This document shows, piece after piece, positions 1 through 33,434 of a stretch of 64,000 nt of DNA (its first letter is position 1; each line of letters begins with the position of its first letter). The stretch spans positions 1,888,001 to 1,952,000 of the forward strand of contig CP068257.2 of the NCBI GenBank assembly GCA_009914755.4. The letters run 5' to 3'. The notes below the pieces were generated by a model, which did not search any database, was not told where the DNA came from, and was given only the letters and a program-made list of their open reading frames with translations. A program made the translations under genes and the position numbers. This stretch comes from the human T2T-CHM13v2.0 reference genome, Homo sapiens.

Positions 1-3000
1 AAATTACATCAAATATATATTATATTAGGTACATAAAATATGAAAGTATATCAAATATAGATTATATACTGTACATAAAATATCAAAGTACCCCAAATAT
101 ATATTATATACTCTACATGAAATATCAAAGTTCACAAACCATATATTATATACTGTACATAAAATAAAGTACCCAAGGTATATATTCTATACTGTAGAAA
201 AGATATCAAAGTACCCAAAGCATGTATTATATACTGTATATAAAATATGAAAGTACATCAAATATATATTTTATTCTGTACATAAAATCTCAAAGTACAC
301 CAGATATATATTCTATAGTGTACATAAAATAACAAAGTACAAAAACTATAAATTATATACTGTACATAAAATATGAAATTACATCAACTATATATTAGGT
401 ACATAAAATATGAAAGTACATCAAATATAGATTATATACTGTACATAAAATATCAATGTACCCCAAATATATATTTTATACTCTGCATGAAATATCAAAG
501 ATCACAAACCATATATTATATACTGTATATAAAATATCAAAGTACCCAAGGTATATATTCTATACTATACAAAAAATATCAAAGTACCCAAAGCATGTAT
601 TATATACTGTACATAAAATATAAAAGTACATCAAATATATATTTTATTCTGTACATAAAATATCAAAGTACACCAGATATATATTCTATAGTGTACATAA
701 AATATCAAAGTACCCAAACTATACATTATATACTGTACATAAAATATGAAATTACATCAAATATATTTTATATTAGGAACATAAAATATGAAAGTACATC
801 AAATATAGATTATATACTGTACATAAAATATCAAAGTACCCCAAGTATATATTATATACTCTACAGGAAATATCAAAGTTCATACACTATATATTATATA
901 CTGTACATAAAATATCAAAGTACCGAAGGTATATATTCTATACTGTACAAAAAATATCAAAGTACCCAAAGCATGTATTATATTCTGTATATAAAATATG
1001 AAAGTACATCAAATATATATTTTATTCTGTACATAAAATATCAAAGTACACCAGATATATATTCTATAGTGTACATAAAATAACAAAGTACACAAACTAT
1101 AAATTATATACTGTACATAAAATATGAGATTACATCAAATATATATTATATTAGGTACATAAAATATGAAAGTACATCAAATATAGATTATATACTGTAC
1201 ATAAAATATCAAAGTACCCCAAATATATATTATATACTCTACATGAAATATCAAAGTTCACAAACTATATATTATATACTGTACATAAAATATCAAAATA
1301 CCCAAGGTATATATTCTATACTGTACAAAAAATATCAAAGTACCCAAAGCATGTATTATATACTGTACATAAAATATGAAAGTACATCAAATATATATTT
1401 TATTCTGTACATAAAATATCAAAGTACACCAGATATATATTCTATAGTGTAAATAAAATAACAAAGTACACAACTATACATTATATACTGTACAGAAAAT
1501 ATGAAATTACATCAAATATATATTAGGTACATAAAATATGAAAGTACATCAAATATAGATTATATACTGTACATAAAATATCAAAGTACCCCAAATATAT
1601 ATTATATACTCTACATGAAATATCAAAGTTCACAAACTATATTTTATATACTGTACATAAAATATCAAAGTACCCAAGGTATATATTCTATACTGTACAA
1701 AAAATATCAAAGTACCCAAAGCATGTATTATATACTGTATATAAAATATGAAAGTACATCAAATATATATTTTATTCTGTACATAAAATATCAAAGTACA
1801 CCAGATATATATTCTATAGTGTACATAAAATAACAAAGTACACAAACTATAAATTATATACTGTACATAAAATATGAAATTACATCAAACATATATTAGG
1901 TACATAAAATATGAAAGTACATCAAATATAGATTATATACTGTACATATAATATCAATGTACCCGAAATATATATTTTATACTCTACATGAAATATCAAA
2001 GTTCACAAACCATATATTATATACTGTACATAAAATATCAAAGTACCCAAGGTATATATTCTATACTGTACAAAAAATATCAAAGTACCCAAAGCATGTA
2101 TTATATACTGTACATAAAATATGAAATTACATCAAATATATATTTTATTCTGTACATAAAATATCAAAGTACACCAGATATATATTCTATAGTGTACATA
2201 AAATATCAAAGTACCCTAACTATACATTATATACTGTACATAAAATATGAAATTACATCAAATATAGACTATATACTGTACATTAAATACCAAAGTACCA
2301 CAAATATATATTTTATACTGTACATGAAATATCAAAGTACACACACTATATATTATATACTGTACATAAAATATCAAAATACCCAACTTATATATTCTAT
2401 ACTGTACAAAAAACATCAAAGTACCCAAAGCATGTATTATATACTGTACATAAAATATGAAAGTACATCAAATATATCTTTTATTCTGTACATAATATAT
2501 CAAAGTACACCAGATATATATTCTATAGTGTACATAAAATAACAAAGTACAAAAAATATAAATTCTATACTGTACCTAAAATATGAAATTACATCAAACA
2601 CATATTAGGTACATAAAATATGAAAGTACATCAAATATAGATTATATACTGTACATAAAATATCAATGTACCCCAAATATATATTTTATACTCTACATGA
2701 AATATCAAATTTCACAAAACATATATTATATACTGTACATAAAATATCAAAGTACCCAAGGTATATATTCTATACTGTACAAAAAATATCAAAGTACCCA
2801 AAGCATGTATTTTATACTGTACATAAAATATGAAAGTACATCAAATATATATTTTATTCTGTACATAAAATATCAAAGTACACCAGATATATATTCTATA
2901 GTGTACATAAAATATCAAAGTACCCAAACTATACATTATATACTATACATAAAATATGAAATTACATCAAATATATATTATATTAGGTACATAAAATACG

Positions 3001-6000
3001 AAAGTACATCAAATATAGATTATATACTCTACATTAAATACCAAAGTACCCCAAATATATATTTTATGCTGTACATGAAATATCAAAGTTCACAAACTAT
3101 ATATTATATACTGTACATAAAATATCAAAGTACCCAACGTATATATTCTATACTGTACAAAAAATATCAAAGTACCCAAAGCATGTATTATATACTGTAC
3201 CTAAAATATGAAAGTACATCAAATATATATTTTATTCTGTACATAAAATATCAAAGTACACCAGATATATATTCTATAGTGTACATAAAATATCAAAGTA
3301 CCCAAACTATACATTATATACTGTACATAAAATATGAAATTACATCAAATATATATTATATTAGGTACATAAAATATGAAAGTATATCAAATATAGATTA
3401 TATACTGTACATAAAATATCAAAGTACCCCAAATATATATTATATACTCTACATGAAATATCAAAGTTCACAAACCATATATTATATACTGTACATAAAA
3501 TAAAGTACCCAAGGTATATATTCTATACTGTAGAAAAAATATCAAAGTACCCAAAGCATGTATTATATACTGTATATAAAATATGAAAGTACATCAAATA
3601 TATATTTTATTCTGTACATAAAATCTCAAAGTACACCAGATATATATTCTATAGTGTACATAAAATAACAAAGTACAAAAACTATAAATTATATACTGTA
3701 CATAAAATATGAAATTACATCAACTATATATTAGGTACATAAAATATGAAAGTACACCAAATATAGATTATATACTGTACATAAAATATCAATGTACCCC
3801 AAATATATATTTTATACTCTGCATGAAATATCAAAGATCACAAACCATATATTATATACTGTATATAGAATATCAAAGTACCCAAGGTATATATTCTATA
3901 CTGTACAAAAAATAACAAAGTACCAAAAGCATGTATTATATACTGTACATAAAATATGAAAGTACATCAAATATAGATTTTATTCTGTTCATAAATTATC
4001 AAAGTACAACAGATATATATTCTATAGTGTACATAAAATATCAAAGTACCCAAACTATACATTATATACTGTACATAAAACATGAAATTACATAAAATAT
4101 ATATTATATTAGGTACATAAAATATTAAAGTACATCAAATATAGATTATATACTGTACATTAAATAGCAAAGTACCCCAAATATATATTTTATACTGTCC
4201 CTGAAATATCAAAGTTCACAAACTATATATTATATACTATACATAAAATATCAAAGTACCCAAGGTATATATTCTATACTGTACAAAAAATATCAAAGTA
4301 CCCAAAGCACGTATTATATACTGTACATAAAATATGAAAGTACATCAAATATATATTTTCTTCTGTACATAGAATATCAAAGTACACCAGATATATATTC
4401 TATAGTGTACATAAAATATCAAAGTACCCAAACTATACATTATATACTGTACATAAAATATGAAATTACATCAAATTTATATTAGGTACATAAAATATGA
4501 AAGTACATCAAATATAGATTATATACTGTACATAAAATATCAAAGTACCCCAAATATATATTATATACTCTACATGAAATATCAAAGTTCACAAACTATA
4601 TATTATATACTGCACATAAAATATCAAAGTATCCAAGGTATGTATTCTATACTGTACAAAAAATATCAAAGTACCCAAAGCATGTATTATATACTGTATA
4701 TAAAATATGAAAGTACATCAAATATATATTTTATTCTGTACATAAAATATCAAAGTACACCAGATATATATTCTATAGTGTACATAAAATATCAAAGTAC
4801 CCAAACTATACATTATATACTGTACATAAAATATGAAATTACATCAAATATATATTATATTAGGTACATAAAATATGAAAGTACATCAAATATAGACTAT
4901 ATACTGTACATTAAATACCAAAGTACCACAAATATATATTTTATACTGTACATGAAATATCAAAGTACACACACTATATATTATATACTGTACATAAAAT
5001 ATCAAAGTACCCAACTTATATATTCTATACTGTACAAAAAACATCAAAGTACCTAAAGCATGTATTATATACTGTACATAAAATATGAAAGTACATCAAA
5101 TATATCTTTTATTCTGTACATAATATATCAAAGTACACCAGATATATATTCTATAGTGTACATAAAATAACAAAGTACAAAAAATATAAATTCTATACTG
5201 TACCTAAAATATGAAATTACATCAAACACATATTAGGTACATAAAATATGAAAGTACATCAAACATAGATTATATACTGTACATAAAATATCAATGTACC
5301 CCAAATATATATTTTATAATCTACATGAAATATCAAATTTCACAAAACATATATTATATACTGTACATAAAATATCAAAGTATCCATGGTATATATTCTA
5401 TACTGTACAAAAAATATCAAAGTACCCAAAGCATGTATTTTATACTGTACATAAAATATGAAAGTACATCAAATATATATTTTATTCTGTACATGAAATA
5501 TCAAACTACCCAAAACATGTATTATATACTGTACATAAAATATGAAAGTACATCAAATATATATTTTATTCTGTACATAAAATATTAAAGTACACCAGAT
5601 ATATATTCTATAGTGTACATAAAATAACAAAGTACACAAACTATAAATTATATACTGTACATAAAATATGAAATTACATCAAATATATATTAGGTACATA
5701 AAATATGAAAGTACATCAAACATAGATTATATACTGTACATAAAATTTCAATGTACCCCAAATATATATTTTATACTCTACATGAAATATCAAAGTTCAC
5801 AAACAATATATTATATACTGTACATAAAATATCAAAGTACCCAAGGTATATATTCTATACTATACAAAAAATATCAAAGTACCCAAAGCATGTATTATAT
5901 ACTGTACCTAAAATATGAAAGTACATCAAATATATATTTTATTCTGTACATAAAATATCAAAGTACACCAGATATATATTCTATAGTGTACATAAAATAT

Positions 6001-7162
6001 CAAAGTACCCAAACTATACATTATATACTGTACATAAAATATGAAATTACATCAAATATATTTTATATTAGGTACATAAAATATGAAGGTACATCAAATA
6101 TAGATTATATACTGTACATTAAATACCAAAGTACCCCAAATATATATTTTATACTGTACATGAAATATCAAAGTTCACAAACTATATATTATATACTGTA
6201 CATATAATATCAAAGTACCCAAGGTATATATTCTATACTGTACAAAAAATAACAAAGTACCAAAAGCATGTATAATACACTGTACATAAAATATGAAAGT
6301 ACATCAAATATATATTTTATTCTGTACATAAAATATCAAAGTACACCAGATATATATTCTATAGTGTACATAAAATATCAAAGTACCCAAACTATACATT
6401 ATATACTGTAAATAAAATATGAAATTACATCAAATATATTTTATATTAGGTACACAAAATATGAAAGTACATCAAATATAGATTATATACTGTACATTAA
6501 ATACCAAAGTACCCCAAATATATATTTTATACTGTACATGAAATATCAAAGTTCACAAACTATATATTATATGCTGTTCATAATATATCAAAGTCCCCAA
6601 GGTATATATTCTATACTGTACAAAAAATATCAAAGTACCCAAAGCATGTATAATACACTGTACATAAAATATGAAAGTACATCAAATATATATTTTATTC
6701 TGTACATAAAATATCAAAGTACACCAGATATATATTCTATAGTGTGCATAAAATATCAAAGTACCCAAACTATACATTATATACTGTAAATAAAATATGA
6801 AATTACATCAAATATATTTTATATTAGGTACACAAAATATGAAAGTACATCAAATATAGATTATATACTGTACATTAAATACCAAAGTACCCCAAATATA
6901 TATTTTATACTGTACATGAAATATCAAAGTTCACAAACTATATATTATATACTGTTCATAAAATATCAAAGTCCCCAAGGTATATATTCTATACTGTACA
7001 AAAAATATCAAAGTACCCAAAGCATGTATTATATACTGTAAATAAAATATGAAAGTACATCAAATATATATTTTATTCTGTACATAATATATCAAAGTAC
7101 ACCAGATATATATTCTATAGTGTACATAAAATAACAAAGTACACAAACTATACATTATATAC

Positions 7163-7535
7163 TGTACATAAAATATGAAATTACATCAAATATATATTAG
7201 GTACATAAAATATGAAAGTACATCAAATATAGATTATATACTGTACATAAAATATCAATGTACCCCAAATATATATTTTATACTATACATGAAATATCAA
7301 AGTTCACAAACCATATATTGTATACTGCACATAAAATATCAAAGTACCCAAGGTATATGTCCTATACTGTACAAAAAATATCAAAGTACCCAAAGCATGT
7401 ATTATATACTGTACCTAAAATATGAAAGTACATCAAATATATATTTTATTCCGTACATAAAATATCAAAGTACACCAGATATATATTCTATAGTGTACAT
7501 AAAATATGAAAGTACACAAACTATACATTATATAC
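7163..7535. repeat. Representative beta-type HOR unit (373 bp, 9 monomers): M1 has the short 39-bp form ending ...atatattagg, and the preceding M9 carries aaaataacaaagtac (TAA)
   Basis: Counted from TGTACA at 7163 to the next M1 TGTACA at 7536; monomer lengths are 39+40+7x42. Confidence 0.8.
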
Positions 7536-7913
7536 TGTACATAATATATGAAATTACATCAAATATATATTATATAAGGTACATAAAATATGAAAGTACA
7601 TCAAATATAGATTATATACTGTACATTAAATACCAAAGAACAACAAATATATATTATATACTCTACATGAAATATCAAAGTTCACAAACTATATATTATA
7701 TACTGTACATAAAATATCAAAGTACCCAAGGTATATATTCTATACTGTACAAAAAATATCAAAGTACCCAAAGCATGTATTATATACTGTATATAAAATA
7801 TGAAAGTACATCAAATATATATTTTATTCTGTACATAAAATGTCAAAGTACACCAGATATATATTCTATAGTGTACATAAAATAACAAAGTACAAAAACT
7901 ATAAATTATATAC
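7536..7913. repeat. Representative alpha-type HOR unit (378 bp, 9 monomers): M1 has the long 44-bp form ...atatattatataagg
   Basis: Counted from TGTACA at 7536 to the next M1 TGTACA at 7914; 378 = 3x126, so the reading frame is preserved across alpha units. Confidence 0.8.
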
Positions 7914-10900
7914 TGTACATAAAATATGAAATTACATCAAATATATATTAGGCACATAAAATATGAAAGCACATCAAATATAGATTATATACTGTACATA
8001 AAATATCAAAGTACCCCAAATATATATTATATACTCTACATGAAATATCAAAGTTCACAAACTATATATTATATACTGTACATAAAATATCAAAGTACCC
8101 AAGGTATATATTCTATAATGTACAAAAAATATCAAAGTACCCAAAGCGTGTATTATATACTGTATATAAAATATGAAATTACATCAAATATATATTTTAT
8201 TCTGTACATAAAATATCAAAGTACACCAGATATATATTCTGTAGTGTACATAAAATATCAAAGTACCCAAACTATACATTATATACTGTACATAAAATAT
8301 GAAATTACATCAAATATATATTATATTAGGTACATAAAATATGAAAGTACATCAAATATAGATTATATACTGTACATTAAATACCAAAGTACCCCAAATA
8401 TATATTTTATACTGTACATGAAATATCAAAGTTCACAAACTATATATTATATACTGTACATAAAATATCAAAGTACCCAAGGTATATATTCTATACTGTA
8501 CAAAAAATATCAAAGTACCCAAAGCATGTATTATATACTGTACCTAAAATATGAAAGTACATCAAATATATATTTTATTCTGTACATAAAATATCAAAGT
8601 ACACCAGATATATATTCTATAGTGTACATAAAATATCAAAGTACCCAAACTATACATTATATACTCTATATAAAATATGAGATTACATCAAATATATATT
8701 ATATTAGGTACATAAAATATGAAAGTACATCAAATATAGACTATATACTGTACATTAAATACCAAAGTACCACAAATATATATTTTATACTGTACATGAA
8801 ATATCAAAGTACACACACTATATATTATATACTGTACATAAAATATCAAAGTACCCAACTTATATATTCTATACTGTACAAAAAACATCAAAGTACCCAA
8901 AGCATGTATTATATACTGTACATAAAATATGAAAGTACATCAAATATATCTTTTATTCTGTACATAATATATCAAAGTACACCAGATATATATTCTATAG
9001 TGTACATAAAATAACAAAGTACAAAAAATATAAATTCTATACTGTACCTAAAATATGAAATTACATCAAACACATATTAGGTACATAAAATATGAAAGTA
9101 CATGAAATATAGATTATATACTGTACATAAAATATCAATGTACCCCAAATATATATTTTATACTCTACATGAAATATGAAATTTCACAAACTATATATTA
9201 TATACTGTACATAAAATATCAAAGTACCCAAGGTATATATTCTATACTGTACAAAAAATATCAAAGTACCCAAAGCATGTATTTTATACTGTACATAAAA
9301 TATGAAAGTACATCAAATATATATTTTATTCTGTACATGAAATATCAAACTACCCAAAACATGTATTATATACTGTACATAAAATATCAAAGTATCCATG
9401 GTATATATTCTATACTGTACATGAAATATCAAAGTTCAAAAACTATATATTATATACTGTACATAAAATATCAAAGTACCCATGGTATATATTCTATACT
9501 GTACAAAAAATACCAAAGTACCCAAAGCATGTATTATATACTGTACATAAAATATGAAAGTACATCAAATATATATTTTATTCTGTACATAAAATATTAA
9601 AGTACACCAGATATATATTCTATAGTGTACATAAAATAACAAAGTACACAAACTATAAATTATATACTGTACATAAAATATGAAATTACATCAAATATAT
9701 ATTAGGTACATAAAATATGAAAGTACATCAAACATAGATTATATACTGTACATAAAATTTCAATGTACCCCAAATATATATTTTATACTCTACATGAAAT
9801 ATCAAAGTTCACAAACCATATATTATATACTGTACATAAAATATCAAAGTACCCAAGGTATATATTCTATACTATACAAAAAATATCAAAGTACCCAAAG
9901 CATGTATTATATACTGTACCTAAAATATGAAAGTACATCAAATATATATTTTATTCTGTACATAAAATATCAAAGTACACCAGATATATATTCTATAGTG
10001 TACATAAAATATCAAAGTACCCAAACTATACATCATATACTGTACATAAAATATGAAATTACATCAAATATATTTTATATTAGGTACATAAAATATGAAG
10101 GTACATCAAATATAGATTATATACTGTACATTAAATACCAAAGTACCCCAAATATATATTTTATACTGTACATGAAATATCAAAGTTCACAAACTATATA
10201 TTATATACTGTACATATAATATCAAAGTACCCAAGGTATATATTCTATACTGTACAAAAAATAACAAAGTACCAAAAGCATGTATAATACACTGTACATA
10301 AAATATGAAAGTACATCAAATATATATTTTATTCTGTACATAAAATATCAAAGTACACCAGATATATATTCTATAGTGTACATAAAATATCAAAGTACCC
10401 AAACTATACATTATATACTGTAAATAAAATATGAAATTACATCAAATATATTTTATATTAGGTACACAAAATATGAAAGTACATCAAATATAGATTATAT
10501 ACTGTACATTAAATACCAAAGTACCCCAAATATATATTTTATACTGTACATGAAATATCAAAGTTCACAAACTATATATTATATGCTGTTCATAATATAT
10601 CAAAGTCCCCAAGGTATATATTCTATACTGTACAAAAAATATCAAAGTACCCAAAGCATGTATAATACACTGTACATAAAATATGAAAGTACATCAAATA
10701 TATATTTTATTCTGTACATAAAATATCAAAGTACACCAGATATATATTCTATAGTGTGCATAAAATATCAAAGTACCCAAACTATACATTATATACTGTA
10801 AATAAAATATGAAATTACATCAAATATATTTTATATTAGGTACACAAAATATGAAAGTACATCAAATATAGATTATATACTGTACATTAAATACCAAAGT

Positions 10901-13900
10901 ACCCCAAATATATATTTTATACTGTACATGAAATATCAAAGTTCACAAACTATATATTATATACTGTTCATAAAATATCAAAGTCCCCAAGGTATATATT
11001 CTATACTGTACAAAAAATATCAAAGTACCCAAAGCATGTATTATATACTGTAAATAAAATATGAAAGTACATCAAATATATATTTTATTCTGTACATAAT
11101 ATATCAAAGTACACCAGATATATATTCTATAGTGTACATAAAATAACAAAGTACACAAACTATACATTATATACTGTACATAAAATATGAAATTACATCA
11201 AATATATATTAGGTACATAAAATATGAAAGTACATCAAATATAGATTATATACTGTACATAAAATATCAATGTACCCCAAATATATATTTTATACTATAC
11301 ATGAAATATCAAAGTTCACAAACCATATATTGTATACTGCACATAAAATATCAAAGTACCCAAGGTATATGTCCTATACTGTACAAAAAATATCAAAGTA
11401 CCCAAAGCATGTATTATATACTGTACCTAAAATATGAAAGTACATCAAATATATATTTTATTCCGTACATAAAATATCAAAGTACACCAGATATATATTC
11501 TATAGTGTACATAAAATATGAAAGTACACAAACTATACATTATATACTGTACATAATATATGAAATTACATCAAATATATATTATATAAGGTACATAAAA
11601 TATGAAAGTACATCAAATATAGATTATATACTGTACATTAAATACCAAAGAACAACAAATATATATTATATACTCTACATGAAATATCAAAGTTCACAAA
11701 CTATATATTATATACTGTACATAAAATATCAAAGTACCCAAGGTATATATTCTATACTGTACAAAAAATATCAAAGTACCCAAAGCATGTATTATATACT
11801 GTATATAAAATATGAAAGTACATCAAATATATATTTTATTCTGTACATAAAATATCAAAGTACACCAGATATATATTCTATAGTGTACATAAAATAACAA
11901 AGTACAAAAACTATAAATTATATACTGTACATAAAATATGAAATTACATCAAATATATATTAGGCACATAAAATATGAAAGTACATCAAATATAGATTAT
12001 ATACTGTACATAAAATATCAAAGTACCCCAAATATATATTATATACTCTACATGAAATATCAAAGTTCACAAACTATATATTATATACTGTACATAAAAT
12101 ATCAAAGTACCCAAGGTATATATTCTATAATGTACAAAAAATATCAAAGTACCCAAAGCGTGTATTATATACTGTATATAAAATATGAAATTACATCAAA
12201 TATATATTTTATTCTGTACATAAAATATCAAAGTACACCAGATATATATTCTGTAGTGTACATAAAATATCAAAGTACCCAAACTATACATTATATACTG
12301 TACATAAAATATGAAATTACATCAAATATATATTATATTAGGTACATAAAATATGAAAGTACATCAAATATAGATTATATACTGTACATTAAATACCAAA
12401 GTACCCCAAATATATATTTTATACTGTACATGAAATATCAAAGTTCACAAACTATATATTATATACTGTACATAAAATATCAAAGTACCCAAGGTATATA
12501 TTCTATACTGTACAAAAAATATCAAAGTACCCAAAGCATGTATTATATACTGTACCTAAAATATGAAAGTACATCAAATATATATTTTATTCTGTACATA
12601 AAATATCAAAGTACACCAGATATATATTCTATAGTGTACATAAAATATCAAAGTACCCAAACTATACATTATATACTGTACATAAAATATGAAATTACAT
12701 CAAACATATATTATATTAGGTACATAAAATATGAAAGTACATCAAATATAGATTATACACTGTACATAAAATATCAAAGTACCCCAAATATATATTTTAT
12801 ACTGTACATGAAATATCAAAGTTCACAAACTATATATTATATACTGTACATAAAATAAAGTCCCCAAGGTATATATTCTATACTGTACAAAAATATCAAA
12901 GTACCCAAAGCATGTATTATATACACTACATAAAATATGAAATTACATCAAATATATATTTTATTCTGTACATAAAATATCAAAGTACACCAGATATATA
13001 TTCTATAGTGTACATAAAATAACAAAGTACACAAACTATAAATTATATACTGTACATAAAATATGAAATTACATCAAATATATATTAGGTACATAAAATA
13101 TGAAAGTACATCAAACATAGATTATATACTGTACATAAAATTTCAATGTACCCCAAATATATATTTTATACTCTACATGAAATATCAAAGTTCACAAACC
13201 ATATATTATATACTGTACATAAAATATCAAAGTACCCAAGGTATATATTCTATACTATACAAAAAATATCAAAGTACCCAAAGCATGTATTATATACTGT
13301 ACCTAAAATATGAAAGTACATCAAATATATATTTTATTCTGTACATAAAATATCAAAGTACACCAGATATATATTCTATAGTGTACATAAAATATCAAAG
13401 TACCCAAACTATACATTATATACTGTACATAAAATATGAAATTACATCAAATATATTTTATATTAGGTACATAAAATATGAAGGTACATCAAATATAGAT
13501 TATATACTGTACATTAAATACCAAAGTACCCCAAATATATATTTTATACTGTACATGAAATATCAAAGTTCACAAACTATATATTATATACTGTACATAT
13601 AATATCAAAGTACCCAAGGTATATATTCTATACTGTACAAAAAATAACAAAGTACCAAAAGCATGTATAATACACTGTACATAAAATATGAAAGTACATC
13701 AAATATATATTTTATTCTGTACATAAAATATCAAAGTACACCAGATATATATTCTATAGTGTACATAAAATATCAAAGTACCCAAACTATACATTATATA
13801 CTGTAAATAAAATATGAAATTACATCAAATATATTTTATATTAGGTACACAAAATATGAAAGTACATCAAATATAGATTATATACTGTACATTAAATACC

Positions 13901-16900
13901 AAAGTACCCCAAATATATATTTTATACTGTACATGAAATATCAAAGTTCACAAACTATATATTATATGCTGTTCATAATATATCAAAGTCCCCAAGGTAT
14001 ATATTCTATACTGTACAAAAAATATCAAAGTACCCAAAGCATGTATAATACACTGTACATAAAATATGAAAGTACATCAAATATATATTTTCTTCTGTAC
14101 ATAAAATATCAAAGTACACCAGATATATATTCTATAGTGTGCATAAAATATCAAAGTACCCAAACTATACATTATATACTGTAAATAAAATATGAAATTA
14201 CATCAAATATATTTTATATTAGGTACACAAAATATGAAAGTACATCAAATATAGATTATATACTGTACATTAAATACCAAAGTACCCCAAATATATATTT
14301 TATACTGTACATGAAATATCAAAGTTCACAAACTATATATTATATACTGTTCATAAAATATCAAAGTCCCCAAGGTATATATTCTATACTGTACAAAAAA
14401 TATCAAAGTACCCAAAGCATGTATTATATACTGTAAATAAAATATGAAAGTACATCAAATATATATTTTATTCTGTACATAATATATCAAAGTACACCAG
14501 ATATATATTCTATAGTGTACATAAAATAACAAAGTACACAAACTATACATTATATACTGTACATAAAATATGAAATTACATCAAATATATATTAGGTACA
14601 TAAAATATGAAAGTACATCAAATATAGATTATATACTGTACATAAAATATCAATATACCCCAAATATATATTTTATACTGTACATGAAATATCAAAGTTC
14701 ACAAACTATATATTATATGCTGTTCATAATATATCAAAGTCCCCAAGGTATATATTCTATACTGTACAAAAAATATCAAAGTACCCAAAGCATGTATTAT
14801 ATACTGTACATAAAATATGAAAGTACATCAAATATATATTTTATTCTGTACATAAAATATCAAAGTACACCAGATATATATTCTATAGTGTACATAAAAT
14901 ATCAAAGTACACAAAATATACATTATATACTGTACATAAAATATGAAATTACATCAAATATATATTATATAAAGTACATAAAATATGAAAGTACATCAAA
15001 TATAGATTATATACTGTACATTAAATACCAAAGAACCCCAAATATATATTATATACTCTACATGAAATATCAAAGTTCACAAACTATATATTATATACTG
15101 TACATAAAATATCAAAGTACCCAAGGTATATATTCTATACTGTACAAAAAATATCAAAGTACCCAAAGCATGTATTATATACTGTATATAAAATATGAAA
15201 GTACATCAAATATATATTTTATTCTGTACATAAAATATCAAAGTACACCAGATATATATTCTATAGTGTACATAAAATAACAAAGTACAAAAACTATAAA
15301 TTATATACTGTACATAAAATATGAAATTACATCAAATATATATTAGGCACATAAAATATGAAAGTACATCAAATATAGATTATATACTGTACATAAAATA
15401 TCAAAGTACACCAAATACATATTATATACTCTACATGAAATATCAAAGTTCACAAACTATATATTATATACTGTACATAAAATATCAAAGTACCCAAGGT
15501 ATATATTCTATAATGTACAAAAAATATCAAAGTACCCAAAGCGTGTATTATATACTGTATATAAAATATGAAATTACATCAGATATATATTTTATTCTGT
15601 ACATAAAATATCAAAGTACACCAGATATATATTCTGTAGTGTACATAAAATATCAAAGTACCCAAACTATACATTACATACTGTACATAAAATATGAGAT
15701 TACATCACATATATATTATATTAGGTACATAAAATATGAAAGTACATCAAATATAGATTATATACTGTACATTAAATACCAAAGTACCCCAAATATATAT
15801 TTTATACTGTACATGAAATATCAAAGTTCACAAACTATATATTATATACTGTACATAAAATATCAAAGTACCCAAGGTATATATTCTATACTGTACAAAA
15901 AATATCAAAGTACCCAAAGCATGTATTATATACTGTACCTAAAATATGAAAGTACATCAAATATATATTTTATTCTGTACATAAAATATCAAAGTACACC
16001 AGATATATATTCTATAGTGTACATAAAATAACAAAGTTCAAAAACTATAAATTATAAACTGTACATAAAATATGAAATTACATCAAATATATATTAGGTA
16101 CATAAAATATGAAAGTACATCAAATATAGATTATATACTGTACATAAAATATCAATGTACCCCAAATATATATTTTATACTCTACATGAAATATCAAAGT
16201 TCACAAACCATATATTATATACTGTACATAAAATATCAAAGTGCCCAAGGTATATATTCTATACTATACAGAAAATATCAAAGTGCCCAAAGCATGTATT
16301 ATATACTGTACCTAAAATATGAAAGTACATCAAATATATATTTTATTCTGTACTTAAAATATCAAAGTACACCAGATATATATTCTATAGTGTACATAAA
16401 ATATCAAAGTACCCAAACTATACATTATATACTGTACATAAAATATGAAATTACATCAAATATATATTATATTAGGTACATAAAATATGAAAGTACATCA
16501 AATATAGATTATATACTGTACACTAAATACCAAAGTACCCCAAATATATATTTTATACTGTATATGAAATATCAAAGTTCACAAACTATATATTATATAC
16601 TGTACATAAAATATCAAAGTACCCAAGGTATATATTCTATACTGTACAAAAAATATCAAAGTACCCAAAGCATGTATTATATACTGTACCTAAAATATGA
16701 AAGTACATCAAATATATATTTTATTCTGTACATAAAATATCAAAGTACACCAGATATATATTCTATAGTGTACATAAAATATCAAAGTACCCAAACTATA
16801 CATTATATACTGTACATAAAATATGAAATTACATCAAATATATATTATATTAGGTACATAAAATATGAAAGCACATCAAATATAGATTATACACTGTACA

Positions 16901-19825
16901 TAAAATATCAAAGTACCCCAAATATATATTTTATACTGTACATGAAATATCAAAGTTCACAAACTATATATTATATACTGTAAATAAAATAAAGTCCCCA
17001 AGGTATATATTCTATACTGTACAAAAATATCAAAGTACCCAAAGCATGTATTATATACAGTACATAAAATATGAAAGTACATCAAATATATATTTTATTC
17101 TGTACATAAAATATCAAAGAACACCAGATATATATTCTATAGTGTACATAAAATAACAAAGTACACAAACTATAAATTATATACTGTACATAAAATATGA
17201 AATTACATCAAATATATATTAGGTACATAAAATATGAAAGTACATCAAACATAGATTATATACTGTACATAAAATTTCAATGTACCCCAAATATATATTT
17301 TATACTCTACATGAAATATCAAAGTTCACAAACCATATATTATATACTGTACATAAAATATCAAAGTACCCAAGGTATATATTCTATACTATACAAAAAA
17401 TATCAAAGTACCCAAAGCATGTATTATATACTGTACCTAAAATATGAAAGTACATCAAATATATATTTTATTCTGTACATAAAATATCAAATACACCAGA
17501 TATATATTCTATAGTGTACATAAAATATCAAAGTACCCAAACTATACATTATATACTGTACATAAAATATGAAATTACATCAAATATATTTTATATTAGG
17601 TATATAAAATATGAAAGTACATCAAATATAGATTATATACTGTACATTAAATACCAAAGTACCCCAAATATATATTTTATACTGTACATGAAATATCAAA
17701 GTTCACAAACTCTATAATATATACTGTACATATAATATCAAAGTACCCAAGGTATATATTCTATAGTGTACAAAAAATAACAAAGTACCAAAAGCATGTA
17801 TAATACACTGTACATAAAATATGAAAGTACATCAAATATATATTTTATTCTGTACATAAAATATCAAAGTACACCAGATATATATTCTATAGTGTACATA
17901 AACTATCAAAGTACCCAAACTATACGTTATATACTGTAAATAAAATATGAAATTACATCAAATATATTTTATATTAGGTACACAAAATATGAAAGTACAT
18001 CAAATATAGATTATATACTGTACACTAAATACCAAAGTACCCCAAATATATATTTTATACTGTACATGAAATATCAAAGTTCACAAACTATATATTATAT
18101 ACTGTACATAAAATATCAAAGTACCCAAGGTATATATTCTATACTGTACAAAAAATATCAAAGTACCCAAAGCATGTATTATATACTGTACCTAAAATAT
18201 GAAAGTACATCAAATATATATTTTATTCTGTACATAAAATATCAAAGTACACCAGATATATATTCTATAGTGTACATAAAATATCAAAGTACCCAAACTA
18301 TACATTATATACTGTACATAAAATATGAAATTACATCAAATATATATTATATAAGGTACATAAAATATGAAAGTACATCAAATATAGATTATATACTGTA
18401 CATTAAATACCAAAGTACCCCAAATATATATTTTATACTGTACATGAAATATCAAAGTTCACAAACTATATATTATATACTGTACATAAAATATCAAAGT
18501 ACCCAAGGTATATATTGTATACTGTACAAAAAATATCAAAGTACCCAAAGCATGTATTATATACTGGACCTAAAATATGAAAGTACATCAAATATATATT
18601 TTATTCTGTACATAAAATATCAAAATACACCAAATGTATATTCTATACTGTACATAAAATATCAAAGTACCCAAACTATACATTATATACTGTACATAAA
18701 ATATGAAATTACATCAAATATATATTATATTAGGTACATAAAATATGAACGTACATCAAATATAGATTATACACTGTACATAAAATATCAAAGTACCGCA
18801 AATATATATTATATACTCTACATGAAATATCAAAGTTCACAAACTATATATTATATACTGTACATAAAATAAAGTCCCCAAGGTATATATTCTATACTGT
18901 AGAAAAAATATCAAAGTACGCAAAGCATGTATTATATACTGTATATAAAATATGAAAGTACATCAAATATATATTTTATTCTGTACATAAAATATCAAAG
19001 TACACCAGATATATATTCTATAGTGTACATAAAATAACAAAGTTCAAAAACTATAAATTATAAACTGTACATAAAATATGAAATTACATCAAATATATAT
19101 TAGGTACATAAAATATGATAGTACATCAAATATAGATTATATACTGTACATAAAATATCAATGTACCCCAAATATATATTTTATACTCTACATGAAATAT
19201 CAAAGTTCACAAACCATATATTATATACTGTACATAAAATATCAAAGTACCCAAGGTATATATTCTATACTATACAAAAAATATCAAAGTACCCAAAGCA
19301 TGTATTATATACTGTACCTAAAATATGAAAGTACATCAAATATATATTTTATTCTGTACATAAAATATCAAAGTACACCAGATATATATTCTATAGTGTA
19401 CATAAAATATCAAAGTACCCAAACTATACATTATATACTGTACATAAAATATGAAATTACATCAAATATATATTATATTAGGTACATAAAATATGAAAGT
19501 ACATCAAATATAGATTATACACTGTACATAAAATATCAAAGTACCCCAAATATATATTATATACTCTACATGAAATATCAAAGTTTGCAAACTATATATT
19601 ATATACTGTACATAAAATAAAGTCCCCAAGGTATATATTCTATACTGTAGAAAAAATATCAAAGTACCCAAAGCATGTATTATATACTGTATATAAAATA
19701 TGAAAGTACATCAAATGTATATTTTATTCTGTACATAAAATATCAAAGTACACCAGATATATATTCTATAGTGTACATAAAATAACAAAGTACACAAACT
19801 ATAAATTATATACTGTACATAAAAT

Positions 19826-22800
19826 ATGAAATTACATCAAATATATATTAGGTACATAAAATATGAAAGTACATCAAATATAGATTATATACTGTACATA
19901 TATTATCAATGTACCCCAAATATATATTTTATACTCTACATGAAATATCAAAGTTCACAAACCATATATTATATACTGTACATAAAATATCAAAGTACCC
20001 AAGGTATATATTCTATACTATACAAAAAATATCAAAGTACCCAAAGCATGTATTATATACTGTACCTAAAATATGAAAGTACATCAAATATATATTTTAT
20101 TCTGTACATAAAATATCAAAGTACACCAGATATATATTCTATAGTGTACATAAAATATCAAAGTACCCAAACTATACATTATATACTGTACATAAAATAT
20201 GTAATTACATCAAATATATATTATATTAGGTACATAAAATATGAAAGTACATCAAATATAGATTATACACTGTACATAAAATATCAATGTACCCCAAATA
20301 TATATCATATACTCTACATGAAATATCAAAGTTTGCAAACTATATATTATATACTGTACATAAAATAAAGTCCCCAAGGTATATATTCTATACTGTAGAA
20401 AAAATATCAAAGTACGCAAAGCATGTATTATATACTGTATATAAAATATGAAAGTACATCAAATGTATATTTTATTCTGTACATAAAATATCAAAGTACA
20501 CCAGATATATATTCTATAGTGTACATAAAATAACAAAGTACACAAACTATAAATTATATACTGTACATAAAATATGAAATTACATCAAATATATATTAGG
20601 TACATAAAATATGAAAGTACATCAAATATAGATTATATACTGTACATATATTATCAATGTACCCCAAATATGTATTTTATACTCTACATGAAATATCAAA
20701 GTTCACAAACCTTATATTATATACTGTACATAAAATATCAAAGTACCCAAGGTATATATTCTATACTGTACAAAAAATATCAAAGTACCCAAAGCATGTT
20801 TTATATACTGTACATAAAATATGAAAGTACATCAAATATATATTTTATTCTGTACATAAAATATCAAAGTACACCAGATATATATTCTATAGTGTACATA
20901 AAATATCAAAGTACCCAAACTATACATTATATACTGTACATAAAATATGAAATTACATCAAATATATATTATATTAGGTACACAAAATATGAAAGTACAT
21001 CAAACATAGATTATATACTGTACATTAAATATCAAAGTACCCCAAATATATATTTTATACTGTACATGAAATATCAAAGTTCACAAACTATATATTATAT
21101 ACTGTACATAAAATATCAAAGTACCCAAGGTATATATTATATACTGTACAAAAAATATCAAAGTACCCAAAGCATGTATTATATACTGTATATAAAATAT
21201 GAAAGTACATCAAATATATATTTTATTCTGTACATAAAATATCAAAGTACACCAGATATATATTCTATAGTGTACATAAAATATCAAAGTACCCAAACTA
21301 TACATTATATACTGTACATAAAATATGAAATTACATCAAATATATATTATATTAGGTACATAAAATATGAAAGTACATCAAATATAGATTATATACTGTA
21401 CACTAAATACCAAAGTACCCCAAATATATATTTTATACTGTACATGAAATATCAAAGTTCACAAACTATATATTATATACTGTACATAAAATATCAAAGT
21501 ACCCAACTTATATATTCTATACTGTACAAAAAATATCAAAGTACCCAAATCATGTATTATATACTGTACCTAAAATATGAAAGTACATCAAATATATATT
21601 TTATTCTGTACATAAAATATCAAAGTACACCAGATATATATTCTATAGTGTACATAAAATATCAAAGTACCCAAACTATACATTATATACTGTACATAAA
21701 ATATGAAATTACATCAAATATATATTATATTAGGTACATAAAATATGAAAGTACATCAAATATAGATTATATACTGTACATAAAATATCAAAGTACCCCA
21801 AATATATATTATATACTCTACATGAAATATCAAAGTTCACAAACCATATATTATATACTGTACATAAAATAAAGTACCCAAGGTATATATTCTATACTGT
21901 AGAAAAAATATCAAAGGACCCAAAGCATGTATTATATACTGTATATAAAATATGAAAGTACATCAAATATATAATTTATTCTGTACATAAAATATCAAAG
22001 TACACCAGACATATATTCTATAGGGTACATAAAATAACAAAGTACAAAAACTATAAATTATATACTGTACATAAAATATGAAATTACATCAAATATATAT
22101 TAGGTACATAAAATATGAAAGTACATCAAATATAGATTATATACTGTACATAAAATTTCAATGTACCCCAAATATATATTTTATACTCTACATGAAATAT
22201 CAAAGTTCACAAACCATATATTATATACTGTACATAAAATATCAAAGTACCCAAGGTATATATTCTATACTATACAAAAAATATCAAAGTACCCAAAGCA
22301 TGTATTATATACTGTACCTAAAATATGAAAGTACATCAAATATATATTTTATTCTGTACATAAAATATCAAAGTACACCAGATATATATTCTATAGTGTA
22401 CATAAAATATCAAAGTACCCAAACTATACATTATATACTGTACATAAAATATGAAATTACATCAAATATATTTTATATTAGGTACATAAAATATGAAAGT
22501 ACATCAAATATAGATTATATACTGTACATTAAATACCAAAGTACCCCAAATATATATTTTATACTGTACATGAAATATCAAAGTTCACAAACTATATATT
22601 ATATACTGTACATATAATATCAAAGTACCCAAGGTATATATTCTATACTGTACAAAAAATAACAAAGTACCAAAAGCATGTATAATATACTGTACATAAA
22701 ATATGAAAGTACATCAAATATATATTTTATTCTGTACATAAAATATCAAAGTACACCAGATATATATTCTATAGTGTACATAAAATATCAAAATACCCAA

Positions 22801-25800
22801 ACTATACATTATATACTGTATATAAAATATGAAATTACATCAAATATATTTTATATTAGGTACACAAAATATGAAAGTACATCAAATATAGATTATATAC
22901 TGTACATTAAATACCAAAGTACCCCAAATATATATTTTATACTGTACATGAAATATGAAAGTTCACAAACTATATATTATATACTGTACATAAAATATCA
23001 AAGTAACCAAGATATATATTCTATACTGTACAAAAAATATCAAAGTACCAAAAGCATGTATTATATACTGTACATTAAATATGAAAGTACATCAAATATA
23101 TATTTCATTCTGTACATAATATATCAAAGTACACCAGATATATATTCTATAGTGTACATAAAATAACAAAGTACACAAACTATAAATTATATACTGTACA
23201 TAAAATATGAAATTACATCAAATATATATTAGGTACATAAAATATGAAAGTACATCAAATATAGATTATATACTGTACATAAAATATCAATGTACCCCAA
23301 ATATATATTTTATACTATACATGAAATATCAAAGTTCACAAACCATATATTGTATACTGTACATAAAATATCAAAGTACCCAAGGTATATATTCTATACT
23401 GTACAAAAAATATCAAAGTACCCAAAGCATGTATTATATACTGTACATAAAATATGAAAGTACATCAAATATATATTTTATTCTGTACATAATATATCAA
23501 AGTACACCAGATATATATTCTATAGTGTACATAAAATATCAAAGTACCCAAACTATACATTATATACTGTACATAAAATATGAAATTACATCAAATATAT
23601 ATTAAATTAGGTACATAAAATACGAGAGTACATCAAATATAGATTATATACTGTACATTAAATACCAAAGTACCCCAAATATATATTTTATACTGTACAT
23701 GAAATATCAAAGTTCACAAACTATATATTATATACTGTACATAAAATATCAAAGTACCCAAGGTATATATTATATACTGTACAAAAAATATCAAAGTACC
23801 CAAAGCATGTATTATATACTGCATATAAAATATGAAAGTACATCAAATATATATTTTATTCTGTACATAAAATATCAAAGTACACCAGATATATATTCTA
23901 TAGTGTACATAAAATATCAAAGTACCCAAACTATACATTATATACTGTACATAAAATATGAAATTACATCAAATATATATTATATTAGGTACATAAAATA
24001 TGAAAGTACATCAAATATAGATTATATACTGTACATAAAATATCAAAGTACCCCAAATATATATTATATACTCTACATGAAATATCAAAGTTCACAAACC
24101 ATATATTATATACTGTACATAAAATAAAGTACCCAAGGTATATATTCTATACTGTAGAAAAAATATCAAAGGACCCAAAGCATGTATTATATACTGTATA
24201 TAAAATATGAAAGTACATCAAATATATAATTTATTCTGTACATAAAATATCAAAGTACACCAGACATATATTCTATAGTGTACATAAAATAACAAAGTAC
24301 ACAAACTATAAATTATATACTGTACATAAAATATGAAATTACATCTAATATATATTAGGTACATAAAATATGAAAGTACATCAAATATAGATTATATACT
24401 GTACATAAAATATCAATGTACCCCAAATATATATTTTATACTCTAAATGAAATATCAAAGTTCACAAACCATATATTATATACTGTACATAAAATATCAA
24501 AGTACCCAAGGTATATATTCTATACTATACAAAAAATATCAAAATACCCAAAGCATGTATTATATACTGTACCTAAAATATGAAAGTACATCAAATATAT
24601 ATTTTATTCTGTACATAAAATATCAAAGTACACCAGATATATATTCTATAGTGTACATAAAATATCAAAGTACCCAAACTATACATTATATACTGTACAT
24701 AAAATATGAAATTACATCAAATATATATTATATTAGGTACATAAAATATGTAAGTACATCAAATATAGATTATACACTGTACATAAAATATCAAAGTACC
24801 CCAAATATATATTATATACTCTACATGAAATATCAAAGTTTGCAAACTATATATTATATACTGTACATAAAATAAAGTCCCCAAGGTATATATTCTATAC
24901 TGTAGAAAAAATATCAAAGTACCCAAAGCATGTATTATATACTGTATATAAAATATGAAAGTACATCAAATGTATATTTTATTCTGTACATAAAATATCA
25001 AAGTACACCAGATATATATTCTATAGTGTACATAAAATAACAAAGTACACAAACTATAAATTATATACTGTACATAAAATATGAAATTACATCAAATATA
25101 TATTAGGTACATAAAATATGAAAGTACATCAAATATAGATTATATACTGTACATATATTATCAATGTACCCCAAATATGTATTTTATACTCTACATGAAA
25201 TATCAAAGTTCACAAACCATATATTATATACTGTACATAAAATATCAAAGTACCCAAGGTATATATTCTATACTGTACAAAAAATATCAAAGTACCCAAA
25301 GCATGTTTTATATACTGTACATAAAATATGAAAGTACATCAAATATATATTTTATTCTGTACATAAAATATCAAAGTACACCAGATATATATTCTATAGT
25401 GTACATAAAATATCAAAGTACCCAAACTATACATTATATACTGTACATAAAATATGAAATTACATCAAATATATATTATATTAGGTACATAAAATATGAA
25501 AGTACATCAAACATAGATTATATACTGTACATTAAATATCAAAGTACCCCAAATATATATTTTATACTGTACATGAAATATCAAAGTTCACAAACTATAT
25601 ATTATATACTGTACATAAAATATCAAAGTACCCAAGGTATATATTATATACTGTACAAAAAATATCAAAGTACCCAAAGCATGTATTATATACTGCATAT
25701 AAAATATGAAAGTACATCAAATATATATTTTATTCTGTACATAAAATATCAAAGTACACCAGATATATATTCTATAGTGTACATAAAATATCAAAGTACC

Positions 25801-26584
25801 CAAACTATACATTATATACTGTACATAAAATATGAAATTACATCAAATATATATTATATTAGGTTCATAAAATATGAAAGTACATCAAATATAGATTATA
25901 TACTGTACACTAAATACCTAAGTACCCCAAATATATATTTTATACTGTACATGAAATATCAAAGTTCACAAACTATATATTATATACTGTACATAAAATA
26001 TCAAAGTACCCAACGTATATATTCTATACTGTACAAAAAATATCAAAGTACCCAAATCATGTATTATATACTGTACCTAAAATATGAAAGTACATCAAAT
26101 ATATATTTTATTCTGTACATAAAATATCAAAGTACACCAGATATATATTCTATAGTGTACATAAAATATCAAAGTACCCAAACTATACATTATATACTGT
26201 ACATAAAATATGAAATTACATCAAATATATATTATATTAGGTACATAAAATATGAAAGTACATCAAATATAGATTATATACTGTACATAAAATATCAAAG
26301 TACCCCAAATATATATTATATACTCTACATGAAATATCAAAGTTCACAAACCATATATTATATACTGTACATAAAATAAAGTACCCAAGGTATATATTCT
26401 ATACTGTAGAAAAAATATCAAAGGACCCAAAGCATGTATTATATACTGTATATAAAATATGAAAGTACATCAAATATATAATTTATTCTGTACATATAAT
26501 ATCAAAGTACACCAGACATATATTCTATAGTGTACATAAAATAACAAAGTACAAAAACTATAAATTATATACTGTACATAAAAT
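19826..26584. repeat. Segmental duplication pair at offset 4507: about 19826-22077 matches about 24333-26584 (~2.25 kb, roughly 99.5% identical)
   Basis: The 432-aa pseudo-ORFs at 20574 and 25081 differ at about 6 residues; the units at 22078 and 26585 both open with the IKFQCT variant aaaatttcaatgtacc. Confidence 0.7.
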
Positions 26585-29500: not shown

Positions 29501-29632
29501 TAAAATATGAAAGTACATCAAATATATATTTTATTCTGTACATAATATATCAAAGTACACCAGATATATATTCTATAGTGTACATAAAATAACAAAGTAC
29601 AAAAACTATAAATTATATACTGTACATAAAAT
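26585..29632. repeat. Block X copy 1 (3048 bp); it recurs at 33435 and 37238
   Basis: Identical 250-aa (26585/33435/37238), 105-aa (27600/34450/38253) and 432-aa (28129/38782) pseudo-ORF translations. Confidence 0.75.
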
Positions 29633-32600: not shown

Positions 32601-32700
32601 AAAGTACACCAGATATATATTCTATAGTGTAAATAAAATATCAAAGTACCCAAACTATACATTATATACTGTACATAAAATATGAAATTACATCAAATAT
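29633..32700. repeat. Block Y copy 1 (about 3.1 kb), duplicated at 40286-43350 (offset 10653)
   Basis: Identical pseudo-ORFs 29633/40286 (179 aa, MVLHQIYISY variant), 30233/40886, 30762/41415 and 31668/42321 (279 aa). The match is lost around 32.7 kb versus 43.35 kb. Confidence 0.7.
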
Positions 32701-33434
32701 ATATTATATTAGGTTCATAAAATATGAAAGTACATCAAATATAGATTATATACTGTACACTAAATACCTAAGTACCCCAAATATATATTTTATACTGTAC
32801 ATGAAATATCAAAGTTCACAAACTATATATTATATACTGTACATAAAATATCAAAGTACCCAACGTATATATTCTATACTGTACAAAAAATATCAAAGTA
32901 CCCAAATCATGTATTATATACTGTACCTAAAATATGAAAGTACATCAAATATATATTTTATTCTGTACATAAAATATCAAAGTACACCAGATATATATTC
33001 TATAGTGTACATAAAATATCAAAGTACCCAAACTATACATTATATACTGTACATAAAATATGAAATTACATCAAATATATATTATATTAGGTACATAAAA
33101 TATGAAAGTACATCAAATATAGATTATATACTGTACATAAAATATCAAAGTACCCCAAATATATATTATATACTCTACATGAAATATCAAAGTTCACAAA
33201 CCATATATTATATACTGTACATAAAATAAAGTACCCAAGGTATATATTCTATACTGTAGAAAAAATATCAAAGGACCCAAAGCATGTATTATATACTGTA
33301 TATAAAATATGAGAGTACATCAAATATATAATTTATTCTGTACATATAATATCAAAGTACACCAGACATATATTCTATAGTGTACATAAAATAACAAAGT
33401 ACAAAAACTATAAATTATATACTGTACATAAAAT

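What the first reader, a model, noticed from the sequence alone, without database searches (positions are those of the whole stretch)
7163..7913. Four nested tiers of periodicity: 42-bp monomer, 9-monomer HOR (373/378 bp), alpha/beta dimer (~751 bp), multi-kb superunits
Nine monomer variants always occur in the same order. Two HOR versions alternate. Beta has a 5-bp shorter M1 (attagg versus attatat[t/a]agg) and TATC>TAAC in M9. Some stretches have runs of alpha-alpha-alpha-beta, giving ~1504-bp units at 20574, 25081 and 28129. The IKFQCT marker aaaatttcaatgtacc recurs at 5668, 9680, 13063, 17197, 22078, 26585, 29633, 33435, 37238, 40286, 43710, 47466 and 51223. Those intervals are mostly multiples of ~375 bp. 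42 bp equals four helical turns of 10.5 bp, and 375 bp is about two nucleosome repeats. That suggests phased nucleosome or curvature organisation, as seen in centromeric satellites with HORs.
Basis: partly seen in the sequence, partly recalled or inferred. Interest (0 to 1): 0.6.

Follow-up and report, generated by a model that had tools for sequence, protein, structure and literature searches.

The report
Human satellite 1A higher-order repeat array
The whole 64-kb window is an array of human classical satellite I (HSat1A, also called "SAR"), and its 42-bp, 378-bp and 751-bp repeat lengths are already published, so the pattern is real but ordinary.

Summary
The window (1-64000) is one uninterrupted, single-strand 42-bp satellite of 1,532 monomers. 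Nine monomer types occur in a fixed order in 152 of 166 units, giving 378-bp or 373-bp units. Multi-kb blocks are duplicated at 99.2-99.6% identity.

The "alpha/beta dimer" tier is only local. Short (373-bp) units are separated by 1, 2, 3 or more long units, and they are absent from the last 8.6 kb. The quoted marker coordinates are ORF starts, 74 nt upstream of the motif.

The sequence is classical human satellite I, HSat1A. Four results support this:
- The monomer splits into alternating 17-bp and 25-bp RsaI sub-units, and the sequence is 78% AT.
- It is 90% and 83% identical to published HSat1A transcript reads.
- It shows the published HSat1A repeat lengths of 42, 378 and 751 bp.
- It turns up at 96-99.6% identity as stray low-coverage contigs in unrelated bacterial assemblies, which is the signature of human contamination.

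The tiers are best explained by repeated unequal exchange, seen as divergence of about 18%, then 5.6%, then 0.4-1% going up the tiers. The helical and nucleosome-phasing idea is not supported: there is no excess 10.5-bp AA/TT harmonic. HSat1A is pericentromeric or on acrocentric short arms, and it is not the CENP-A-binding satellite. Already known; low interest.

The parts
1..64000 (+). Uninterrupted HSat1A (classical satellite I / SAR) array: 1,532 monomers of 42 bp, all in one orientation. The + strand is the A-rich strand and the sense strand of published HSat1A poly(A) transcripts.
   Evidence: TRF. Uniform GC 0.21-0.22 and constant skews. In-silico RsaI fragments of 17 bp (40%) and 25 bp (38%) alternate A-B-A-B. 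Alignment to published RACE reads on the + strand only.
7178..7550 (+). Short 9-monomer HOR unit (373 bp; M1 lacks 5 bp, ...ATATATTAGG).
   Evidence: Monomer decomposition and unit table; sequence read.
7551..7928 (+). Long 9-monomer HOR unit (378 bp; M1 ...ATTATATAAGG; M8 ends TAAC at 7879-7886; M9a).
18751..21053 (+). Local true dimer tier: 748-bp (373+375) unit repeated about 3 times at 98.3% identity.
   Evidence: Lag scan; unit table.
43916..53569 (+). 3,757-bp superunit of 10 HOR units (pattern S L S L S L L S L L), about 2.6 tandem copies at 99.4% identity.
25647..43510 (+). Large duplication at lag 10,653 bp (25647-32857 versus 36300-43510, 99.6%), with nested lags of 6,850 bp and 3,803 bp. 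It carries the 10-monomer variant 1233456789 at 26961, 31138, 33811, 37614 and 41791.
5461..12860 (+). 4,012-bp duplicated block (99.1%), followed by a 3,383-bp related copy.
55442..63290 (+). Second array domain with only 378-bp (or structurally variant) units and no short-M1 units. Its identity to domain 1 is 0.934, against 0.943-0.947 within each domain.
63290..63870 (+). Patch of more divergent monomers (0.76-0.95 identity to the HOR monomer centroids) with a 208-bp, 5-monomer internal duplication.

Best explanation
The window is a stretch of human classical satellite I, now called HSat1A (RepeatMasker/Dfam "SAR"). This is the most AT-rich satellite of the human genome. [quoted passage not shown]

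The nested periodicities are what repeated unequal crossing-over and gene conversion leave in a tandem array.
- An old 42-bp (17+25 bp) monomer diverged to about 81.5% identity between monomer types.
- A block of nine monomers was then amplified as a 378-bp HOR, whose copies are now about 94.4% identical.
- One variant junction segment (M8-TAAC + M9a + M1 with a 5-bp deletion) marks some units.
- Blocks of 2, 3, 4, 10 and up to 28 HOR units were then duplicated locally and very recently (99.2-99.6% identical).

Shown here: the structure, the divergence layering and the identity of the family. Inferred: the exchange mechanism (the classical Smith-type model) and the human origin. No sequence-encoded function is needed to explain the pattern.
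For: Structure.

Identity as HSat1A:
- 42 bp = 17 + 25 bp. RsaI (GTAC) fragments of 17 bp (950) and 25 bp (886) alternate strictly: 793 A-B and 637 B-A transitions, and no A-A or B-B among the commonest transitions listed. This matches the classical definition quoted in PMC8125562 and PMC9909926.
- AT content is 78.3%, against a published 77%.
- Published HSat1A 3'RACE reads (PMC9909926, Additional file 6) align to the + strand at 90.2% over 123 columns and 82.9% over 298 columns. Scores are 99 and 192, against 24-40 for shuffled queries.
- The literature states that HSat1A forms 378-, 751-, 3013-, 3474- and 6330-bp longer repeats (PMC9909926). It also states that the chr13 array is organised into 378-bp HORs (Altemose et al., Fig. 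S10E). My NTRprism-like spectrum of the window ranks 378 > 42 > 373, then multiples of 42, with 751 and 748 just behind.

Vertebrate and human origin:
- There are 59 CpG in 64 kb, against about 690 expected from base composition.
- An exact 40-mer from M8 recurs in tiny, low-coverage contigs of at least 15 unrelated bacterial assemblies and in metagenomes. These match the window at 96-99.6% identity, which is the usual signature of human DNA contamination.
Against: I could not compare the window with a human or ape assembly, or with the Dfam SAR consensus, so the chromosome and species are not pinned down. HSat1A also occurs in gorilla, chimpanzee and bonobo. The published RACE clones belong to another HSat1A subfamily and are only 83-90% identical. 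The published larger periods (3013, 3474, 6330 bp) are not the ones seen in this window (3757, 3803, 4012, 4507, 10653 bp). That fits locally varying periodicity but does not confirm anything. The unequal-exchange mechanism is inferred from pattern, not observed.
Confidence: 0.92

Rival explanations
1. One reading: a functional centromeric HOR satellite in which the 42-bp (4 x 10.5) and roughly 375-bp (two nucleosome) periods encode DNA curvature or phased nucleosomes.
For: 42 = 4 x 10.5 and 378 = 2 x 189 are numerically true. The HOR structure is real. HSat1A arrays sit inside or next to the alpha-satellite arrays of chr3 and chr4.
Against: There is no excess 10.5-bp AA/TT harmonic: its share is 0.11-0.13, with shuffle P = 0.38, and the dominant periods are 8.4 bp and 21 bp. 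The literature finds HSat1A associated with inverted and mirror repeats, not A-phased repeats. CENP-A maps to alpha satellite on either side of the chr4 HSat1A array. No CENP-B box is present. Unit length varies (331-752 bp structural variants), which would break strict phasing.
Confidence: 0.04
2. The same satellite family, but from a non-human African ape (gorilla, chimpanzee or bonobo) rather than human.
For: HSat1A is reported on the acrocentric short arms of gorilla, chimpanzee and bonobo as well as human. No assembly comparison was possible.
Against: Stray contigs in many unrelated bacterial isolate assemblies match this exact HOR at up to 99.6% identity. Such ubiquitous contamination is expected from human DNA, not ape DNA. 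The 378/751-bp periods match those published for the human CHM13 genome.
Confidence: 0.08
3. The repeats encode a repetitive protein, read from the long + strand ORFs of up to 449 aa.
For: 90 ORFs of at least 60 aa, nearly all on the + strand. HSat1A is transcribed and polyadenylated from this strand (PMC9909926).
Against: 42 and 378 are multiples of 3, and by my own reading the consensus monomer happens to lack stop codons in 4 of 6 frames. About 26% of frames would be stop-free per frame by composition alone. Every ORF start checked is the ATG 3 nt before a short-M1 unit (42 of 42). There are no Pfam hits. Variation between copies shows no sign of codon-aware constraint, although this was not formally tested.
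Confidence: 0.01
4. The top tier (multi-kb near-identical blocks) is an assembly artefact, meaning falsely duplicated or collapsed repeats, rather than genome structure.
For: 99.2-99.6% identical blocks in a satellite are hard to assemble, and I have no read support.
Against: The copies differ at scattered sites (0.4-0.8%) and have different lengths and nesting. Locally varying periodicity is reported for real T2T satellite arrays.
Confidence: 0.03

Closest known systems
Human satellite 1A (HSat1A; classical satellite I; RepeatMasker/Dfam SAR, DF0001062)
   Same: 42-bp monomer made of 17-bp A and 25-bp B RsaI sub-units. About 77-78% AT. 9-monomer 378-bp HOR with a 751-bp longer repeat. 83-90% identical to published HSat1A transcript reads. 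Same strand asymmetry.
   Different: Nothing in kind. The multi-kb duplications in this window (3.76, 3.80, 4.01, 4.51 and 10.65 kb) are not the larger periods quoted for CHM13 arrays (3013, 3474 and 6330 bp). That fits local, array-specific expansion.
Alpha-satellite higher-order repeats (functional human centromeres)
   Same: Monomers about 20% diverged, arranged in a fixed order as a multi-monomer unit. Unit copies are much more similar than monomers. Structural-variant units and local "macro-repeats" occur. All of this arises by unequal exchange.
   Different: The monomer is 42 bp, not 171 bp. There is no CENP-B box. It is not the site of CENP-A enrichment. HOR copies here are only about 94% identical, where active alpha HORs are usually quoted at 97-100% (from memory).
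Nested tandem repeats of HSat2/HSat3 and HSat1B
   Same: Pericentromeric or acrocentric heterochromatin satellites with kilobase-scale longer periods that vary along an array.
   Different: HSat2/3 derive from (CATTC)n without discrete monomers. HSat1B is a roughly 2.5-kb composite containing an Alu fragment. This window has discrete 42-bp monomers and no transposable-element fragment.

Membership tests
HSat1A / classical human satellite I (SAR) | Tandem 42-bp repeat unit | tested here: met
   TRF: period 42, 1,532 copies over 1-64000. Lag-42 identity 0.784.
HSat1A / classical human satellite I (SAR) | Monomer made of alternating A (17 bp) and B (25 bp) sub-units delimited by RsaI (GTAC) sites | tested here: met
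   In-silico RsaI digest gives 17 bp (950) and 25 bp (886) as the two main fragments. There are 793 A-B and 637 B-A transitions, and no A-A or B-B among the commonest transitions listed. The definition is quoted.
HSat1A / classical human satellite I (SAR) | Extreme AT richness (about 77%) | tested here: met
   AT 78.3%. The published clones average 77%.
HSat1A / classical human satellite I (SAR) | Sequence similarity to bona fide HSat1A sequence | tested here: met
   90.2% over 123 columns and 82.9% over 298 columns to published 3'RACE reads, far above shuffles. The Dfam SAR consensus itself was not available to me.
HSat1A / classical human satellite I (SAR) | Higher-order periods of 378 bp (9-mer) and 751 bp | tested here: met
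   against the literature values.
HSat1A / classical human satellite I (SAR) | Location in pericentromeres of chr3/4 or on acrocentric short arms of a hominine genome | not testable with these tools
   No eukaryotic assembly was searchable. Indirect support comes from the human-contamination signature and CpG depletion.
Functional centromeric HOR satellite (alpha-satellite type) | CENP-B box, or CENP-A/CENH3 occupancy | tested here: not met
   No match to TTCGNNNNANNCGGG with up to 2 mismatches, against 4.95 expected by chance. Published CENP-A maps place the signal on the alpha-satellite arrays on either side of the chr4 HSat1A array. Occupancy itself cannot be tested here.
Intrinsically curved (A-phased) satellite DNA | A-tracts or AA/TT dinucleotides phased at 10-11 bp | tested here: not met
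   The k=4 (10.5-bp) harmonic share is 0.11-0.13, with shuffle P = 0.38. A-tracts in the consensus start at positions 1, 11 and 35. The literature says HSat1A is not in the A-phased class.

The most novel reading that the evidence does not exclude
The short-M1 haplotype block (M8-TAAC + M9a + 5-bp-deleted M1) is almost never adjacent to itself: 4 S-S adjacencies, against 19.6 expected. It also creates the ATG-initiated open frame on the transcribed strand. This could reflect a constraint on unit order or on HSat1A transcripts, rather than just the history of which blocks were amplified.
Probability: 0.04. Interest if true: 0.45.

Novelty: already known. Interest (0 to 1): 0.1.

Why it matters
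It matters little as a discovery. The 42-bp (17+25) monomer has been known since the 1980s. The 378-bp 9-mer HOR and the 751-bp repeat of HSat1A were reported from the T2T-CHM13 genome. The window is a clean worked example of layered satellite evolution: about 18%, then 5.6%, then 0.4-1% divergence from one tier to the next. As a side product, it shows that HSat1A fragments contaminate many deposited bacterial assemblies, some with RefSeq (NZ_) accessions.

Tried and rejected
1. A full-text search for four sequence strings from the monomer found no paper. The family was instead recognised from the 17/25-bp sub-structure and then tested.
2. The final Science paper (PMC9233505) and the Altemose review (doi 10.1016/j.semcdb.2022.04.012) are not held. 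I therefore could not assign the 751-bp period to a chromosome.
3. The TRASH paper gave no HSat1A HOR details.
4. The GC-richer 4.5-kb flank of metagenome contig L003 looked like a possible transposable element or array edge. On reading, it is a noisy copy of the same satellite in a long-read assembly, with no Alu, poly-A or (GGAAT)n.
5. Secondary-structure idea: a 378-nt HOR unit folded as ssDNA is no more stable than shuffles (z = -0.54). Only short AT palindromes are found.
6. Coding idea: the three longest ORFs checked have no Pfam match.
7. Ungapped autocorrelation under-reports the higher tiers because of the 5-bp indel. It was replaced by monomer decomposition.

Full report
**What is there.** The finding's coordinates (7163-7913) are an arbitrary 751-bp sample of something that fills the whole window. 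TRF reports one 42-bp array from 1 to 64000, with 1,532 copies and 80% matches. Composition is uniform at GC 0.21-0.22, and the strand skews are constant, so every monomer has the same orientation.

I decomposed the array into monomers with a wraparound alignment to the consensus. Monomer-to-monomer identity is 0.806-0.818 at lags 1-8. It jumps to 0.928 at lag 9, 0.924 at lag 18 and 0.913 at lag 27. Clustering recovers nine monomer types. They occur in the order 1-9 in 152 of 166 units. Position 9 has two alternative forms, M9a and M9b. The exceptions are ordinary structural variants of 8, 10, 11, 12, 14, 15, 17 and 18 monomers. One of them, the 10-monomer unit 1233456789, recurs five times. 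Unit lengths are 378 bp (78 units), 373 bp (45) and 375 bp (16).

**The dimer tier.** The 373-bp units lack 5 bp in M1. That deletion is almost perfectly linked to TAAC at the end of M8 and to M9a just upstream (53/1/1/106, Fisher P = 2e-40). The two HOR versions therefore differ by one contiguous M8-M9-M1 haplotype block.

They do not alternate along the array. Between successive short units there are 0, 1, 2, 3, 4 or 5 long units, in 4, 23, 15, 8, 2 and 1 cases respectively. This gives S-S spacings of 751, about 1,127, about 1,505 and 793 bp. Short units avoid being adjacent: 4 S-S pairs are seen against 19.6 expected by permutation. HOR-unit identity at lag 2 (0.9462) is hardly above lag 1 (0.9406) or lag 3 (0.9439). 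Real 748/751-bp tandem dimers exist only locally, at 18751-21053 and 45079-46957. After about 55.1 kb the short units disappear.

**The top tier.** A scan of all lags for windows of at least 98.5% identity found these near-identical blocks:

| Lag (bp) | Region(s) | Identity |
|---|---|---|
| 10,653 | 25647-32857 vs 36300-43510 | 99.6% |
| 3,757 | 43916-53569, about 2.6 tandem copies of a ten-unit pattern S L S L S L L S L L | 99.4% |
| 3,803 | 32173-36290 vs 35976-40093 | 99.2% |
| 6,850 | 25647-29440 vs 32497-36290 | 99.2% |
| 4,012 | 5461-8848 vs 9473-12860 | 99.1% |
| 4,507 | 19594-22478 vs 24101-26985 | 98.8% |

These are local duplications of different sizes, not one period.

**The marker.** Those coordinates, and 20574/25081/28129, are the ATG starts of + strand ORFs. 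All 42 ORF starts I checked lie 3 nt before a short-M1 unit.

**What it is.** The monomer splits into a 17-bp and a 25-bp part that share GTACA..AAATAT. An in-silico RsaI digest gives 17-bp (950) and 25-bp (886) fragments in strict A-B-A-B alternation. This is the textbook definition of human classical satellite I, as quoted in PMC8125562 and PMC9909926. [quoted passage not shown]

- AT content is 78.3%, against the published 77%.
- Published HSat1A 3'RACE reads (PMC9909926, Additional file 6) align to the + strand at 90.2% over 123 columns and 82.9% over 298 columns. Scores are 99 and 192, against 24-40 for shuffled queries and about 26-33 on the minus strand.
- Altemose et al., Fig. S10E, shows the 4.9-Mb chr13 array organised into 378-bp HORs.
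- My NTRprism-style spectrum of the window ranks 378, 42, 373, then multiples of 42, then 751/748, then 3757 and 3803.

**Origin.** CpG is about 12-fold depleted, with 59 observed against about 690 expected from base composition, as in methylated vertebrate DNA.

An exact 40-mer from M8 occurs in 16 stretches of DNA from metagenome contigs. It also occurs in 18 tiny, mostly low-coverage contigs of unrelated bacterial assemblies, including Thiocystis, Mycobacterium, Photobacterium, Streptomyces and Mariprofundus. These contigs match the window at 96-99.6% identity over their full length. That distribution is the hallmark of human DNA contamination, so a human origin is likely.

HSat1A also exists in gorilla, chimpanzee and bonobo, but not on orangutan short arms. 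I could not align the window to any eukaryotic assembly. The species is therefore about 90% certain, and the chromosome is undetermined.

**How it works.** The three levels of divergence are:
- about 18.5% between monomer types;
- about 5.6% between HOR copies;
- 0.4-1% between copies of the multi-kb blocks.

This is the expected record of successive rounds of unequal crossing-over or gene conversion. Each round amplifies a block of whatever size happened to be exchanged. The scarcity of adjacent short units follows naturally if the amplified blocks were SL, SLL, SLLL and larger. The structure and the layering are shown. The mechanism is inferred from the classical model of tandem-repeat evolution. 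No sequence-encoded function is required.

- If 42 = 4 x 10.5 bp mattered for curvature, AA/TT or A-tracts should be phased at 10.5 bp. The 10.5-bp harmonic carries only 0.10-0.13 of the power, which is the chance level (shuffle P = 0.38). The strongest harmonics are 8.4 bp (AA/TT) and 21 bp (W versus S-containing steps).
- An independent T2T survey finds that HSat1/HSat1A overlaps inverted and mirror repeats, whereas A-phased repeats characterise HSat2/3 (PMC11661062).
- A HOR unit folded as single-stranded DNA is not unusually stable (z = -0.54).
- There is no CENP-B box.
- Published CENP-A maps put the kinetochore signal on alpha satellite, on both sides of the chr4 HSat1A array.
- Nucleosome phasing cannot be tested from sequence. 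The many off-size units (331-752 bp) would disturb any strict register.

**Verdict.** The description is accurate, with three corrections: no array-wide alternation, marker coordinates offset by 74 nt, and a top tier that is a patchwork. The object is an already described human satellite with already described 42/378/751-bp periodicities. Interest is low.

Noticed in passing
window, + strand, e.g. 61122-62471, 20574-21872, 7926-9014: There are 90 ORFs of at least 60 aa, up to 449 aa, in 78% AT DNA. 42 and 378 are multiples of 3, and the consensus monomer is stop-free in two + frames. The three longest ORFs checked have no Pfam hits.
   Followed up: partly
window 55100-63290: The array changes domain here. 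Short-M1 units stop, and only 378-bp units and their structural variants follow. HOR identity between the two domains is 0.934, against 0.943-0.947 within each.
   Followed up: partly
window 63290-63870: A patch of more divergent monomers (0.76-0.95 identity to the HOR monomer types) with a 208-bp, five-monomer internal duplication. Lag-208 identity is 0.73, against 0.32-0.45 at lags 209-212. The cloned HSat1A unit in PMC9909926 is listed as 210 bp, so this may be a different HSat1A subfamily embedded in the array.
   Followed up: partly
L017-L034 (e.g. NZ_NRRF01000279.1 Thiocystis violacea, NZ_RJLM01000164.1 Photobacterium, LZSE01000128.1 Mycobacterium): Contigs of 300-540 bp in deposited assemblies of unrelated bacteria, several with RefSeq (NZ_) accessions, are this satellite at 96-99.6% identity. 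Where the contig name gives coverage, it is about 1-4x. This is human contamination left in public microbial genomes.
   Followed up: partly
L002 (Ga0115841_10218), L007/L022 (Gemella MAG contig ERZ773024.738), L003 1-4500 (BNJS01002444.1): L002 carries the satellite head-to-head in both orientations, which is probably an amplification or assembly chimera. The 11.7-kb Gemella MAG contig ends in 128 bp of the satellite, which is a chimeric join. L003 1-4500 (GC 0.39) is a noisy, error-laden copy of the same satellite in a long-read metagenome contig, not a flanking element.
   Followed up: partly
window, whole: There are only 59 CpG dinucleotides in 64 kb, about 12-fold fewer than base composition predicts. 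Several recur at superunit spacing (e.g. 26698/33548/37351 and 26862/33712/37515), so they are inherited variants of duplicated blocks.
   Followed up: no
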